NCBI GenBank assembly: GCA_963813715.1
Contig: CAWFAK010000008.1
Coordinates: 160,001-224,000 of the forward strand
DNA length: 64,000 nucleotides
Reading direction: 5' to 3'
Source: an uncultured Planctomycetaceae bacterium
GTDB lineage: Bacteria > Planctomycetota > Planctomycetia > Planctomycetales > Planctomycetaceae
Position numbers: made by a program. Shown here piece by piece: positions 21,001 to 24,000 of the stretch (position 1 is its first letter; each line of letters starts with the position of its first letter).

Positions 21001-24000
21001 GTGGGCTGCGACGGTCGTCAGGAAAGCAGAGTACAACGCCTCGCTTCCGCTTGCAGCCATCATCGCGGGCGTGAACGATTCGACGGCCTGCATCGCGCCC
21101 TTCACGCTCAACTGTCGCGGGGTGGTCCCGGTTCGCTTCGCCGACTCCGTCATTGTTCCGCGAAGTAAATTGTAGGCAAGCAAGTGGGCGAAGATTTCCT
21201 TCGTCACCATGTCGGGATTCTTGCAGCGGAGCACGTCGAGGTGCATCGACTGCTTGAGCGAACGCAGGTCTAGTTCACAATTCCACCGACGCCAGTACAG
21301 GTCGGATAATTCCTTTTGCGGGATCGACGGGTCGGTAATCGTGCTGATGACGATCGCCTTTTCGGTGCCGCCGCTGCGTCCCTCTATGTCTATCATGAAT
21401 TCGCGGACCAGCACCGTCTCCGGCATCTGAGTCGAAGGCCTCGCGGTCTGCCTTGTGATGGCATCGCGGCTTGTGCCATTCGACGATATGGTCATTCTCC
21501 CCAAGCCGAAATCCCTCGCTGAAATCGACCGTGCGGTTGCTGGTGGCTGACAGACACCATGTCGATGCCCCGCTGAGCGAGAGCGGCGACCGTGGAATAC
21601 GACGGATAGAAGCGATCGGCTACAAGAATGTTGCCCCGCTGCATCGTGTCGAGCATGCCGCGGAGAAGAGCCCCCTCGCCGGTCCCTTTGCCTTCGTGTG
21701 CTGCGAAAGCGAAATCGACGACCGCCCCCGTCGGCCAGACGAAATCATCGCCACGGCCCGCATGACCGGAAACCCGACGCCCTTTGCGTTGATGGACTTC
21801 GACTCTGTGGGAACGCCAATTGATTCTCAGGCGTGTCGGGCATCGAGAGGCCCGTGCCGTCAACCAGGAACACCTCCCGATCCCGCCAGTGCCACGAATC
21901 GTCGGCGGAGTCATGGACGTTGCGGCCGATCTCTTTCGCCAGCCGAACCATGACCGGCAACGGGAAGCGACTGCGGGCATCGCTGTAGCTGGCAGACGAT
22001 GCCGAGCAAGCGGGCAGGCCAGTTGCAACACGGTGGGCAAGGATGCGGGACACCGCCTCATTCAGCGATTTGTCCTGAGAGAGGCACTGTGACAGCCAAG
22101 CCCAAAGTGTGACCAGCGGGCAAAAGACACGCTGGCGATATTCGTGGCCCTCAGCCTCAAGCGATCGCAGGACGTGCTCGCGAGTCAGGATACGCCCGAA
22201 TGGCAAGCCGCTGTCGTTGGCGAATTTATCCCTGACGACGCCGAAGTCTTTGCGGGGCATTGTGGGTCCGCTTTCCCGTCGATGGGGCGAACCGCGTAGA
22301 ATCGTAGCTTGTCAGGGCTGGATTCTGGCGATTCGCCTGGTTTCTGTGTTCTCGCCCCGGTTGGATTGGCGTCCTTCCGGGGTTTTCTATTTCGCTCGAT
22401 TTATTGTACGGACAACAATTAGGTCATGCAAGGGAAAAGCGGTTGACACGCCGATTTTTTGTCCGTATTATTGTACGGATGAAAAAGAAGCGGGGGCGAC
22501 CACCCCTGCCGGAGAATCGGCGCAAGGGGGAGCGGATAGAGTTTCGGGCCGAGCCAAACGAGCGGGAAGCTTATGAGGCTGCCGCAAAGGCCGCGGGCCT
22601 GGAGCGCTCAGAATGGATGCGTGACCGACTTAATGCGGCCGTTCGCCGAGAATCAAAGAAGCCCTGAACGGCACTATCGGGAATCCACTTTCTTGTAGTA
22701 GGATCAACAGAATGGACGTGTCGGGAGTTGGACCCGAAACCGAATGCTTATAAGGCGACGGTCCCACCTGGCACGCCCGAGGACGGCGAATTGGAGGAGA
22801 CGGGGTACGATCCCGTAACCGCGGATTTAAAGTCCGTTGCTTTGCCGATTAAGCTACTCCCCCCTTTGCCGTTGCTCATCCACCCCGGACCAGCGGGTAC
22901 GATCCGCTGGTCCGGGGGGATTGACAAACTGAGCACTGGGCAAAGTCTTCCCAGACAACCCAAAGCACCTAGGATCTTATAGGCACTTCGCAAATCTTTG
23001 CCAGCAAAGGACTTCCAATCACCTTGCCGACAACGGTATCATGATACCGTTATTTACTGGTCGGTCAATACCGGAATTTTCCGGAGGGGGTGATCGGAGT
23101 GGACTTTCAGCCGCTAATCGCGCCGTACTCGCCTTGGCGCCAGCCGGAAAGCGAACGGATCTGGGACACCGAAGTGCCCAAATTCCGCCGGCCAATTTTT
23201 TCGCAGCTCAAAGAGGATCTGCAGTCAATCGAGCAAATCGTGTCGATCACCGGACCGCGACGCGTCGGAAAATCGACCCTGTTGCGCCAGCTGATTCAGT
23301 ACCTGCTCGCGGAAAAGCAGGTGGATCCGTCGCAGATCATCTACTACCAGTTCGATGATCCGGCCCTGTTCCGGAAGGGGGTGAACGGCGGGGATTTGCT
23401 CGAAAGCATGATGGAGCACCTGTGTCGAGCCAAGGCCCGCCCTGCCTATCTGTTTCTCGACGAAATCCAGACGCTGGACCGTTGGGAGCTTTATCTCAAG
23501 AAATTCTACGACCTGAAGTATCCGGTCCGCATGGTCGTGTCTGGCTCCGCGTCCAGCCCGATCTTCAAGAAGAGCCGCGAGAGCCTTCTGGGCCGAGTGA
23601 AGGATTATCGCGTACTGCCGTTCTCGTTCAGGGAATATTTGCTCCATGAACTGGAACCGTCGAGCCCGGCAATCTTGGAAGAAATGAAGGGCATCTATGA
23701 GGCTGGCGAAACCTTAAAGGGAATGTTGGTCCGGCATCCTGAGCACATCGACAGGCCATCGGCCCAAGTCCCCAGAATGTCCGAAGACCTGTGGCACCGA
23801 TCACAGGAGGCCCTGAAAACCTATTTGGTTGACGGAGGCTTTCCTGAAGTGTCAGCGCTTCAGACTAGCGACAAAAAGATTGAATACCTCTTTGAGAACC
23901 AGGTTAAAAAGGTCATTTTTGAAGACCTCGTTCTCGCAACCGAGTTTAGGAAGCCCGAACAGCTCAAAACGTTCTACGTGTCCCTTCTCGAAAAACCCGG

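What a model noticed while it worked through the whole genome (the two positions that open the first line are those of the whole stretch)
22713..22863. Tandem pair of alanine-identity tRNA-like genes; the first is an ochre-suppressor tRNA(UUA), opal (UCA) in the sister sp [...]
A well-formed 72-nt tRNA with anticodon UUA carries G3:U70 and A73, the alanine identity set, so it should insert alanine at UAA. Fourteen bases downstream is a 66-nt D-armless tRNA-like element with the same acceptor features. The sister species has the same pair at the same locus, but its tRNA has anticodon UCA and compensatory stem changes. This points to a maintained stop-codon-reading tRNA rather than a decaying copy.
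Evidence so far: Rfam tRNA score is 61.3 bits in G000 and 68.6 bits in G002. Only the 4 true tRNA-Ala genes and this gene, of 87 predictions, have G3:U70 with A73. Three compensatory changes separate G000 and G002. The second element was found by relaxed aragorn in both genomes. In G002 it matches the tmRNA tRNA-like domain at E 6e-5, below gathering. The flanks are syntenic and the module is inverted. The neighbouring IS4 element is separate. A promoter-like site lies 178 nt upstream.
(Added by a program. Inside this text positions count along the whole contig: contig position 160,001 is position 1 of the stretch shown here. "Call 12" and the like, gene names such as g00115 and contig names such as C1 are that model's own, and its searches are not shown. 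The text may have been shortened before it was handed on; [...] marks where a part breaks off. The agent that wrote the report below was given it as the finding of a first reader that could run no searches.)

Follow-up and report, generated by a model that had tools for sequence, protein, structure and literature searches.

The report
Transposon-borne alanine-type stop-codon tRNA pair
A jumping gene in a soil planctomycete carries a well-folded tRNA that looks built to put alanine at stop codons, plus a tRNA look-alike without an anticodon; similar odd tRNAs are known from other soil bacteria, and whether this one works is untested.

Summary
Window 22792-22863 (-) is a 72-nt tRNA (Rfam 61.3 bits) with anticodon UUA and the bacterial alanine acceptor set (G2:C71, G3:U70, G4:C69, A73). 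Thirteen bases on, 22713-22778 (-) is a 66-nt anticodon-less tRNA-like RNA with G3:U70 and A73. The sister genome G002 has the same pair with anticodon UCA.

New findings:
- The pair is not beside a separate IS4 element. It is cargo inside a 3,742-bp IS4-family transposon (20861-24602) with perfect 29-bp inverted repeats and an 11-bp target duplication.
- The transposon also carries a NikA-like RHH gene and a defence-candidate ATPase.
- G002 has the transposon at the same palindromic hot-spot in the opposite orientation, with different distal cargo.
- The tRNA body derives from chromosomal tRNA-Trp (52 of 57 positions), with an alanine-type acceptor end.
- Five double compensatory changes in 33 pairs, and diverged spacers, argue for selection on structure.

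No expression, charging or suppression data exist. No stop-interrupted target gene was found, and the G000 copy shows some wear. Natural G3:U70 tRNAs with a UUA anticodon, and irregular tRNA polycistrons near toxin-antitoxin or transposon genes, were already reported in soil acidobacteria (Mukai 2017). I rate this a new variant of a known kind.

The parts
20850..20860 (.). Left target-site duplication CCTTGTGAAAG (11 bp)
   Evidence: Identical to 24603-24613. Paralogous empty sites at C5:350780 and C8:146311 hold a single copy inside the loop of a palindrome.
20861..20889 (+). Left terminal inverted repeat of the transposon (29 bp, perfect)
   Evidence: It is the reverse complement of 24574-24602. 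The same repeat type (GAATGGCAC...TTAAGG) bounds related elements in 14 loci.
20869..22260 (-). IS4-family DDE transposase, a frameshifted pseudogene in this genome
   Evidence: Pfam DDE_Tnp_1 matches a fragment. The reading frame changes at least three times. The G002 orthologue is an intact 458 aa protein matching NCBIfam NF033592 at 196.5 bits, cut-off 115.
22443..22471 (+). Sigma-70-like promoter of the RHH gene (TTGACA-17-TATTAT, 11 of 12), flanked by direct repeats TTATTGTACGGA at 22401-22412 and 22468-22479
   Evidence: Found and conserved in G002. The repeats are read from the sequence. The ATG lies 8 nt after the -10 hexamer, so the mRNA may be leaderless (inference).
22479..22667 (+). 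NikA-like ribbon-helix-helix protein (62 aa), stop codon TGA
   Evidence: Pfam PF21983, E 1.3e-6. Against G002 it shows 17 synonymous and 5 non-synonymous codon differences in 63 codons. RHH relatives sit next to the transposase in 4 related loci and in a fifth locus about 2.3 kb from it; Pfam also calls NikA-like in L033 and L040.
22713..22778 (-). Anticodon-less tRNA-like RNA (66 nt) with a 7-bp acceptor stem bearing G3:U70, A73 and a 5-bp T arm
   Evidence: Sequence. Rfam tRNA scores 17.5 bits, E 0.44. The G002 copy scores 21.7 bits for tRNA and 22.6 bits for mascRNA. There are 2 double compensatory changes in the acceptor stem. It is 86% identical to the G002 copy. The G002 copy folds as a four-way junction.
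22779..22791 (-). 13-nt spacer between the two RNAs
   Evidence: Only 7 of 13 positions match G002, with 2 gaps.
22792..22863 (-). tRNA with anticodon UUA, alanine-type acceptor end, tRNA-Trp-like body, T loop AUCGUAC and an A27-C43 mismatch
   Evidence: ARAGORN and Rfam 61.3 bits. Three double compensatory changes against G002. Nearest host tRNAs.
22881..22920 (-). 14-bp G+C-rich hairpin 17 nt upstream of the tRNA; its 7-nt loop AUCGUAC equals the tRNA's T loop
   Evidence: Sequence. Fold energy -46 kcal/mol for 22864-22935, z -7.9. There is no T run after it, so it is not an intrinsic terminator. G002 has an unrelated hairpin whose loop carries GUUCGAGC, its own T-loop sequence.
23041..23068 (-). 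Promoter-like site (TTGACC-16-TATCAT, 10 of 12) that could drive the tRNA pair; it overlaps a 20-bp perfect palindrome at 23032-23051
   Evidence: with the palindrome read. It lies in cargo DNA that is not homologous in G002.
23090..24262 (+). AAA_14/DUF4143 ATPase (390 aa), a defence-candidate cargo gene, stop codon TAA
   Evidence: Pfam AAA_14 at 1.9e-34 and DUF4143 at 4.3e-10. PADLOC PDC-S01 at 2e-53. In G002 this slot holds HNH, type II methyltransferase fragments and another small gene instead.
24574..24602 (-). Right terminal inverted repeat (29 bp)
24603..24613 (.). Right target-site duplication CCTTGTGAAAG
   Evidence: One soil-metagenome contig joins 20849 directly to 24603, which is the empty site. 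It has 1 other letter in 150 bases on the left and 0 in 70 on the right.

Best explanation
The two RNAs are cargo genes of a 3.7-kb IS4-family cargo transposon.

Origin of the first RNA. It is a tRNA-Trp descendant. Its acceptor end now carries the bacterial AlaRS identity set, and its anticodon reads a stop codon: UUA here (UAA, and UAG by wobble) and UCA in the sister copy (UGA).

Proposed mechanism (inferred, not shown):
1. The pair is transcribed as a dicistron from promoters within the variable cargo.
2. RNase P and 3' processing cut it, and CCA is added, since neither gene encodes CCA.
3. AlaRS charges both RNAs.
4. The tRNA competes weakly with release factors and inserts alanine at stop codons.
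5. The second RNA has no anticodon arm, so it can be processed and perhaps alanylated but cannot decode.

What is shown: the RNAs exist, they fold, they sit inside a bona fide transposon, they are under purifying selection on structure, and the alanine acceptor set and a stop anticodon are kept in both copies.

What is inferred: expression, charging by AlaRS, read-through, and any benefit to the element or host.
For: - tRNA quality: 61.3 and 68.6 bits.
- Alanine set: A73, G2:C71, G3:U70 and G4:C69 are all present in the tRNA in both genomes. The set is as listed for bacteria in PMC9976931 (passages).
- Only the four true tRNA-Ala genes share G3:U70 with A73, among 87 predictions.
- Structure: 5 double compensatory changes, 98.5% of cells paired, none in the slid controls.
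- The RNAs are 82-86% identical, against 54% for the spacer. RHH synonymous change is also high, with 17 of 22 differing codons synonymous.
- Both anticodons are stop-reading, with C32, U33, A37 and A38 kept.
- Transposon: perfect 29-bp inverted repeats and an 11-bp target duplication. 13 of 14 related elements have 10-12 bp duplications. An empty-site contig exists in a soil metagenome.
- Precedent: natural G3:U70 tRNAs with wild-type anticodon UUA, converted to CUA, inserted mainly Ala and Ser at amber codons in E. coli (PMC5389517, section 15).
Against: - There are no expression data; no RNA run holds the stretch.
- No conserved promoter: homology with G002 stops exactly at the tRNA 5' end.
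- The G000 copy has A54/U58 in place of T54/A58, an A27-C43 mismatch and C20 instead of G20. Its transposase is a pseudogene.
- No gene in either element has an in-frame stop that would need suppression. The breaks seen are frameshifts.
- All three stop codons are in ordinary use: TGA 57%, TAA 22%, TAG 22% of 2,879 long ORFs. An efficient suppressor would therefore be costly.
- The UUA copy also carries U34, U35 and A73, which are lysine identity elements, so Lys charging is possible.
- The pair was found in 2 of 398 genomes of the order and in 1 of 80 related transposase loci, G000 being left out of that collection.
Confidence: 0.45

Rival explanations
1. The RNAs serve the mobile element outside translation. 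They would be processed, and perhaps charged, but would work as structured RNAs. Possible roles are a toxic or addictive RNA held in check by the adjacent RHH regulator or by its convergent transcript, a decoy for tRNA-targeting nucleases, or a tRNA-like element inside a longer regulatory RNA.
For: - The second RNA has no anticodon arm, yet it is the better conserved of the two (86%) and has compensatory changes.
- RHH and the RNAs are convergent, 45 nt apart, with no terminator-like site between them. RHH transcripts would therefore run antisense through both RNAs.
- In relatives, the RHH gene is followed on the same strand by a variable gene: L040, L033 and L017.
- Cargo of this transposon family is defence-like: GmrSD, HNH/methyltransferase and PDC-S01.
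- Mukai 2017 found allo-tRNA(UAU) species inactive in translation, two of them lethal in E. coli, and proposed a link to toxin-antitoxin systems or transposable elements (PMC5389517, section 16).
- B. cereus tRNA-Other acts as a tRNA-like element in a larger RNA (PMC3399842, abstract).
Against: - The first RNA keeps a full decoding-competent cloverleaf and a 7-nt anticodon loop with U33.
- Both copies keep stop anticodons, which a purely structural role does not require.
- No toxin gene and no known partner protein is shared by the two elements apart from RHH and the transposase.
Confidence: 0.3
2. The RNAs are tRNA pseudogenes that hitch-hiked on the transposon and are slowly decaying. The stop anticodons and the G3:U70 pair are accidents.
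For: - G000 has a non-canonical T loop, an A27-C43 mismatch and a 4-nt variable loop.
- Two internal arms of the second RNA that pair in G002 are mismatched in G000.
- The G000 transposase is frameshifted, and the G002 cargo genes are frameshifted too.
- No conserved promoter was found.
- The pair is seen in only two genomes.
- The three T-loop changes in G000 equal the loop of the hairpin 17 nt upstream. They may be one templated event rather than selected covariation.
Against: - Five double compensatory changes, and no stem pair lost except 27:43.
- The RNAs diverge two to three times more slowly than the spacer and than synonymous sites of the neighbouring RHH gene.
- The acceptor identity set is intact in all four RNAs.
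- Only 1 of the 9 single-base neighbours of UCA is another stop anticodon, and that is the one seen.
Confidence: 0.2
3. The second element is a relic of a tmRNA or tRNA attachment site of an integrative element, not an RNA gene.
For: - Its T arm resembles tmRNA T arms: a 24-nt local match of score 12 to the host tmRNA 3' end.
- A weak tmRNA_permuted hit in G002.
Against: - It has its own 5' acceptor strand, with two compensatory pairs.
- No integrase is present in either element.
- tmRNA_permuted scores 10.8 bits against a gathering score of 47.
- The host has a normal tmRNA elsewhere, at C17:540576-540934.
Confidence: 0.05

Closest known systems
Allo-tRNAs and irregular tRNA polycistrons of soil acidobacteria (Mukai et al. 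2017, NAR, PMC5389517; sections 15 and 16 read)
   Same: - Natural bacterial tRNAs with G3:U70 and non-alanine anticodons, including UUA.
- Some tRNA(UAU)-type copies carry destabilised stems.
- They occur as tandem 'polycistrons' of irregular tRNAs in soil organisms.
- They lie near toxin-antitoxin or transposon genes.
- Function in the native host is unknown.
   Different: - Allo-tRNAs have 8/4 or 9/3 acceptor/T branches. This tRNA is a canonical 7/5 cloverleaf with a 4-5 nt variable loop.
- It derives from tRNA-Trp.
- It is in Planctomycetaceae, according to the record title of L012.
- The carrier here is fully delimited: inverted repeats, target duplication and an empty site.
Classical nonsense suppressor tRNAs and predicted tRNA-Sup genes in bacteria with the standard code (PMC13092985, passages read)
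   Same: - The anticodon is complementary to a stop codon.
- That paper reports such genes in 0.3% of the genomes it analysed.
- It also reports that 20.5% of tRNA-Sup(UUA) have a 4-bp anticodon stem, as the G000 copy does.
   Different: - Classical suppressors keep the identity of the parent tRNA (recalled: for example supG from tRNA-Lys, and tRNA-Trp UCA).
- Here the acceptor end was switched to the alanine set.
- The gene rides on a transposon together with a tRNA mimic.
tmRNA tRNA-like domain and other tRNA mimics (mascRNA; B. cereus tRNA-Other, PMC3399842, abstract read)
   Same: The second RNA has an acceptor stem with G3:U70 and A73 and a T arm but no anticodon function, like the tmRNA tRNA-like domain. 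It scores 22.6 bits on the mascRNA model.
   Different: - It has no tag reading frame or pseudoknots.
- It is below the gathering score of every Rfam family.
- No sequence relationship to tRNA-Other was tested.
Stop-to-alanine or sense-to-alanine reassignments in organelles through G3:U70 tRNAs (PMC7609411 passage; PMC6551751 search listing only)
   Same: A tRNA with a non-alanine anticodon is made an alanine tRNA by G3:U70.
   Different: Those are genome-wide code changes in mitochondria. Here all three stop codons stay in normal use.
Transposons with toxin-antitoxin or passenger genes next to the transposase (Tn3 family, PMC7157771, search listing only)
   Same: A small regulator-type gene is placed beside the transposase promoter, with variable passenger genes inside the inverted repeats.
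   Different: The transposase family differs (IS4, DDE_Tnp_1). No toxin was identified, and the passenger here is an RNA pair.

Membership tests
Bacterial elongator tRNA (Rfam RF00005) | Cloverleaf scoring above the gathering score (29 bits) | tested here: met
   61.3 bits in G000 and 68.6 bits in G002. The second element scores only 17.5 and 21.7 bits, so it does not meet the score.
Bacterial elongator tRNA (Rfam RF00005) | Conserved tertiary nucleotides U8, G18, G19, U33, G53, T54, psi55, C56, A58, C61 | tested here: inconclusive
   G002 has all of them. G000 has A54 and U58 instead of T54 and A58; the rest are present. The list of positions is recalled.
tRNA-Ala identity (substrate of bacterial AlaRS) | A73, G2:C71, G3:U70, G4:C69 in the acceptor stem | tested here: met
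   All four are present in the tRNA of both genomes. The second RNA has A73, G2:C71 and G3:U70 but C4:G69. The set is taken from PMC9976931.
tRNA-Ala identity (substrate of bacterial AlaRS) | G20 (minor element) and actual aminoacylation with alanine | not testable with these tools
   Position 20 is C in G000. Charging needs an enzyme assay.
Nonsense suppressor tRNA | Anticodon complementary to a stop codon in a 7-nt loop with U33 | tested here: met
   CUUUAAA (UUA) in G000 and CUUCAAA (UCA) in G002.
Nonsense suppressor tRNA | Read-through of stop codons in vivo | not testable with these tools
   No RNA run holds the stretch. No stop-interrupted gene was found in either element.
Allo-tRNA (Mukai 2017) | 12-bp acceptor branch split 8/4 or 9/3 | tested here: not met
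   The split is 7 bp plus 5 bp in both genomes, with a variable loop of 4-5 nt.
tmRNA / tmRNA tRNA-like domain | Match to tmRNA models; tag reading frame | tested here: not met
   tmRNA_permuted scores 10.8 bits against a gathering score of 47. ARAGORN finds the host tmRNA elsewhere.
IS4-family transposon | DDE transposase of the IS4 family | tested here: met
   NF033592 at 196.5 bits, cut-off 115, for the intact G002 protein. G000 holds the frameshifted orthologue at 78-89% identity in pieces.
IS4-family transposon | Terminal inverted repeats and a direct target duplication | tested here: met
   29-bp perfect inverted repeats and an 11-bp duplication. 13 of 14 related elements have 10-12 bp duplications. 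An empty site was seen.
Type II toxin-antitoxin module (RHH antitoxin plus toxin) | Adjacent protein toxin gene co-oriented with the RHH gene | tested here: not met
   There is no conserved ORF after the RHH gene in G000 or G002; that slot holds the two RNAs on the other strand. RHH matches NikA-like only.

The most novel reading that the evidence does not exclude
A mobile translation-recoding cargo. An IS4-family transposon spreads an alanine-inserting stop-codon suppressor, built from a tRNA-Trp body and an alanine acceptor end. Its stop specificity has switched between UGA and UAA in two diverged copies. It travels with an anticodon-less, alanine-accepting tRNA mimic and an RHH regulator. 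Together these would act as a selfish or defence-linked module that tunes or sabotages termination, for example against phages or as an addiction device.
Probability: 0.22. Interest if true: 0.85.

Novelty: new variant of a known kind. Interest (0 to 1): 0.6.

Why it matters
If the tRNA is active, this is a natural case of a stop-codon-to-alanine adaptor that moves between genomes on a small transposon. It would be a route by which decoding rules can be perturbed horizontally.

It also gives a compact, fully delimited and experimentally tractable example of the poorly understood 'irregular tRNA' genes that soil bacteria keep near toxin-antitoxin and transposon genes.

The chimeric build (Trp body, alanine acceptor end) and the UGA/UAA switch between two copies show how identity and specificity can be re-wired by few changes.

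Independently of the tRNAs, the carrier belongs to a family of IS4 transposons with 1.3-3.2 kb of variable, partly defence-like cargo in Planctomycetaceae. My paper searches did not surface a description of it, and none of them targeted the family itself.

Tried and rejected
- **Does the transposase need the suppressor?** No. The G002 transposase is one open 458-aa frame, and the G000 copy is broken by frameshifts, not by stop codons.
- **Do other genes in the element need it?** No. The G002 HNH and methyltransferase genes are split by frame changes. The stop codons are RHH TGA in both genomes, ATPase TAA, G002 transposase TAA and the G002 upstream gene TAG, with no pattern matching the anticodons.
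- **Protein-coding reading on the opposite strand.** There is no ORF conserved between G000 and G002 over the RNAs.
- **More copies, by transposase.** Of the 80 best loci among 503 relatives in genome contigs, only L012 (G002 itself) has the pair.
- **More copies, by RHH.** The metagenome-contig scan gave 2 weak loci, neither close.
- **tRNA-like elements near RHH in relatives.** Rfam at E up to 1 on 7 loci (6 with an RHH relative, plus the weak metagenome locus L092) found none.
- **Viral contigs.** Two IUPAC patterns gave 0 and 0 matches.
- **Relatives.** In 61 relatives, and in 398 genomes of the order, only G000 and G002 have the pair. One search lists 150 matches and leaves 485 weaker ones unlisted.
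- **L032 'tRNA-Ile(tat)'.** This ARAGORN call inside a related element looks spurious on inspection.
- **Expression.** No RNA holder is listed among 6 runs. The contigs laid show presence only.
- **Function of genes that follow RHH in relatives.** The atlas gave only unnamed clusters for L040. For L017 it gave a sub-threshold lead to Apea-like HEPN at score 0.87. This is a lead only.
- **One Rfam call** over 20 loci was too large. I replaced it with a BLAST of upstream regions and the smaller Rfam.
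Full report
**1. The observation**

ARAGORN finds two tRNAs in the window. One is tRNA-Stop(tta) at 22792-22863 on the minus strand. Rfam's tRNA model scores it 61.3 bits, against a gathering score of 29, over the full model.

- Read from that alignment, the acceptor stem is GGGGGAG/CUCCUCC with G3:U70 and discriminator A73.
- The anticodon loop is CUUUAAA and the T loop is AUCGUAC.
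- A27 faces C43, so the anticodon stem has four pairs.
- Neither this gene nor the next encodes CCA.

Thirteen bases downstream, 22713-22778 (-) has a 7-bp acceptor stem GGGCGUG/CACGUCC, again with G3:U70 and A73. It also has a T arm UCGGG-UCCAACU-CCCGA and 34 nt in between. It is sub-threshold for tRNA at 17.5 bits, E 0.44. Relaxed ARAGORN calls it tRNA-Ile(tat).

Among the 87 ARAGORN predictions of the genome, 5 have G3:U70 with A73: four tRNA-Ala and this gene.

**2. The sister copy**

A BLAST of the region over 61 relatives finds the whole pair only in G002, at 80% identity. Other hits are tRNA-Lys genes.

- G002 has a 74-nt tRNA with anticodon UCA. ARAGORN labels it SeC because of the anticodon. 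It scores 68.6 bits and has a canonical T loop.
- The second element follows it. It scores 21.7 bits for tRNA, 22.6 bits for mascRNA and 10.8 bits for tmRNA_permuted.

On an alignment of the two pairs with the structure I wrote by hand:

- 33 pairs hold 65 cells, of which 98.5% are standard pairs.
- 5 pairs changed on both sides: 6:67, 13:22 and 50:64 in the tRNA, and 5:68 and 6:67 in the second RNA.
- Sliding the partner by 1-3 columns gives 0 such pairs.

With two sequences the shuffle control has little power (13 of 500 shuffles reach the observed value).

Block identities between G000 and G002:

| Block | Identity |
|---|---|
| tRNA | 59 of 72 |
| Second RNA | 57 of 66 |
| Spacer between them | 7 of 13 |
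| Spacer to the RHH gene | 30 of 40 |

Of the 63 RHH codons, 22 differ between the genomes, 17 of them synonymously. The RNAs therefore change more slowly than nearby unconstrained sites.

**3. Where the pair lies**

Pfam places murE, murF and mraY at 13783-18309 and a phosphatase at 19024-19776. After these come an IS4 DDE fragment (20869-22260, minus strand), a NikA-like RHH gene (best start 22479, end 22667), the two RNAs, and an AAA_14/DUF4143 ATPase at 23090-24262. G+C falls from about 0.63 to 0.49-0.58 across 20600-24600.

A self-BLAST of the genome shows that 20837-20889 is the inverted copy of 24574-24626. It also shows that paralogous sequence on C5 runs uninterrupted from the left flank into the right flank.

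The junctions give:

- perfect 29-bp terminal inverted repeats at 20861-20889 and 24574-24602;
- an 11-bp direct duplication, CCTTGTGAAAG, on both sides;
- an insertion point in the loop of a palindrome, GGTCAACTAC-CTTGTGAAAG-TAGTTGACC, which occurs six times in the genome with 4 or fewer mismatches.

The element is 3,742 bp long. One soil-metagenome contig joins 20849 to 24603 with almost no other differences, which is the empty site.

**4. The transposon family**

The G002 transposase is an intact 458-aa protein and matches NCBIfam IS4 family NF033592 at 196.5 bits. The G000 copy is split over three frames.

A scan of genome contigs gave 503 relatives, of which 80 loci were kept. Their record titles place most of them in Planctomycetaceae and other Planctomycetota.

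- In 14 elements where I could place both repeats, the right repeat follows the transposase stop.
- The left repeat lies 1.3-3.2 kb upstream of the transposase start.
- 13 of the 14 have 10-12 bp direct duplications; L040 does not.
- Among close copies, only about 90-125 nt upstream of the transposase start is shared.

This is therefore a family of cargo-carrying IS4 transposons. Cargo with Pfam matches includes GmrSD, P63C, DUF3800, an IrrE-like peptidase with HTH, DUF6941, an SMC-like ATPase and NikA-like RHH. Most cargo ORFs have no match. The G000 ATPase matches PADLOC candidate PDC-S01 at 2e-53. The G002 cargo matches HNH and type II methyltransferase, in fragments.

The pair lies inside the element's repeats.

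**5. G000 against G002**

G002 has the element at the same palindrome, with a duplication CCTCGTGAATG plus a further partial copy. The whole element lies in the opposite orientation. The shared block is transposase-RHH-second RNA-tRNA, window 20874-22864 at 83% identity. Homology ends exactly at the tRNA 5' end, and the distal cargo differs.

Flanking chromosomal DNA is 91-95% identical. I infer independent insertions or re-insertion at a hot-spot, and a longer divergence time for the element than for the hosts. This is inference only.

**6. Origin of the tRNA**

- The G002 tRNA body (positions 8-66) matches the chromosomal tRNA-Trp(CCA) of G000 at 52 of 57 positions.
- In 398 genomes of the order, the listed matches other than G000 and G002 stop within the tRNA. 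Most cover query positions 3-57 to 3-70. One covers positions 1-80.
- Of the ten matches I fetched, nine are tRNA-Trp(CCA). The tenth, the 1-80 match, is the tRNA-Ala(UGC) of an Ile-Ala pair.
- From the T loop to the 3' end, the G002 tRNA resembles that tRNA-Ala more than it resembles tRNA-Trp (my reading).
- The G000 acceptor stem equals the host tRNA-Ala(GGC) stem in 6 of 7 pairs.
- The G000 anticodon arm equals tRNA-Lys(UUU) except at position 36 and the 27:43 pair. Only two changes separate it from the G002 arm.

The tRNA is thus a Trp-type body with an alanine-type acceptor end.

According to the identity review (PMC9976931, passages):

- the bacterial alanine set is A73, G2:C71, G3:U70, G4:C69 and G20;
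- the Trp set includes G73 and C34-C35-A36;
- the Lys set is the anticodon triplet and A73.

The tRNA has the four acceptor elements of alanine and has lost G73. In G000 it also carries U34, U35 and A73, so some lysine charging cannot be excluded.

**7. Is there a target?**

- No gene of either element is interrupted by a stop codon.
- The stop codons of the element's genes show no pattern matching the anticodons.
- In 2,879 long, high-GC3 ORFs of G000, the stop codons are TGA 57%, TAA 22% and TAG 22%. The genome uses the standard code.
- The RHH gene has a strong promoter-like site (11 of 12) that is conserved in G002, with repeats that look like an operator.
- The only promoter-like site upstream of the tRNA lies in G000-specific cargo.
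- RHH and the RNAs converge, with no terminator-like site between them.

**8. Odd details**

The hairpin 17 nt upstream of the G000 tRNA has the loop AUCGUAC, the same as the tRNA's unusual T loop. The unrelated G002 hairpin carries GUUCGAGC, the T-loop sequence of its own tRNA. I have no tested explanation. A short templated conversion between neighbouring hairpins would make the A54/U58 'covariation' a single event.

In G002 the second RNA folds as a four-way junction with two short internal arms. In G000 one pair in each of these arms is mismatched.

**9. What is known**

Mukai et al. 2017 (PMC5389517; sections 15 and 16 read) reported the following:

- Natural allo-tRNAs with G3:U70 whose wild-type anticodons were GCG and UUA. 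After conversion to CUA, these inserted mainly Ala and Ser in E. coli.
- Allo-tRNA(UAU) species with destabilised stems that were inactive in translation. Two of them were lethal.
- Polycistrons of irregular tRNAs in soil metatranscriptomes.
- A frequent neighbourhood of toxin-antitoxin or transposon genes.

The review PMC7609411 repeats this (passages). PMC13092985 (passages) reports predicted suppressor tRNAs in 0.3% of standard-code bacterial genomes and a 4-bp anticodon stem in 20.5% of tRNA-Sup(UUA).

The present tRNA fails the defining 8/4 or 9/3 geometry of allo-tRNAs. My searches surfaced no description of a suppressor-type tRNA as cargo of a delimited IS-type transposon. That covers only the held library and those search terms.

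**10. Verdict**

The RNAs are real and are shaped by selection on structure. They are carried by a cargo transposon that was mobile recently enough to leave an empty allele in the environment.

The reading 'alanine-inserting stop suppressor' is the best single mechanism, but it is inferred. I give it 0.45. A non-translational role for the element gets 0.3, decay 0.2 and an attachment-site relic 0.05.

The finding is a new variant of a known kind. Interest is 0.6.

Noticed in passing
G000 contig C7:914718-919431 (outside the window): An array of 32 tRNA genes in 4.7 kb on one strand, covering most amino acids. It includes a second tRNA-Ala(UGC) with G3:U70. It looks like a mobile tRNA gene array. 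None of its members is the closest relative of the suppressor-type tRNA.
   Followed up: partly
Loci L013-L040 (relatives); window 20861-24602: A family of IS4-type transposons, 2.7-6.6 kb long, with GAATGGCAC...TTAAGG inverted repeats and 10-12 bp target duplications. They carry 1.3-3.2 kb of variable cargo upstream of the transposase. Some of the cargo is defence-like: GmrSD, HNH/methyltransferase and PDC-S01 ATPase.
   Followed up: partly
window 20840-20860 with 24603-24632; G000 C5:350780, C8:146311, C2:85770, C7:223128, C9:211642, C14:86449: A palindromic repeat, GGTCAACTAC-CTTGTGAAAG-TAGTTGACC, with six intact copies. It sits in a longer multicopy sequence upstream of paralogous genes. 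Its loop is the insertion site of this transposon in G000 and G002, and of a related element in L013.
   Followed up: partly
window 22881-22920 and L002 1444-1484: The loop of the hairpin just upstream of the tRNA copies the T-loop sequence of that genome's tRNA: AUCGUAC in G000 and GUUCGAGC in G002. The hairpins themselves are not homologous. Unexplained.
   Followed up: partly
window 22401-22412 and 22468-22479: Direct repeats TTATTGTACGGA flank and overlap the -10 hexamer of the RHH promoter. The ATG follows the -10 by 8 nt, which suggests an autoregulated and possibly leaderless RHH mRNA.
   Followed up: no
window 23032-23051: A perfect 20-bp palindrome, AACGGTATCATGATACCGTT, lies between the tRNA-side promoter-like site and the start of the ATPase gene. 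It is operator-like.
   Followed up: no
L011 12640-12670 (G002): Beside the right end of the G002 element, the 11-bp target duplication is followed by a further partial copy, CCTCGTGAAAG. This may be a footprint of an earlier insertion or excision.
   Followed up: no
L011 7497-8521 and 8940-9351 (G002): The HNH endonuclease and the MT-A70-type methyltransferase in the G002 cargo are each split by a frame change. The transposase of that element is intact.
   Followed up: no
window 24617-26446: A 609-aa ORF without Pfam, NCBIfam or PADLOC matches lies directly downstream of the insertion site. It is only about 85% identical to G002 at the DNA level, while neighbouring genes are 91-95% identical.
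   Followed up: no
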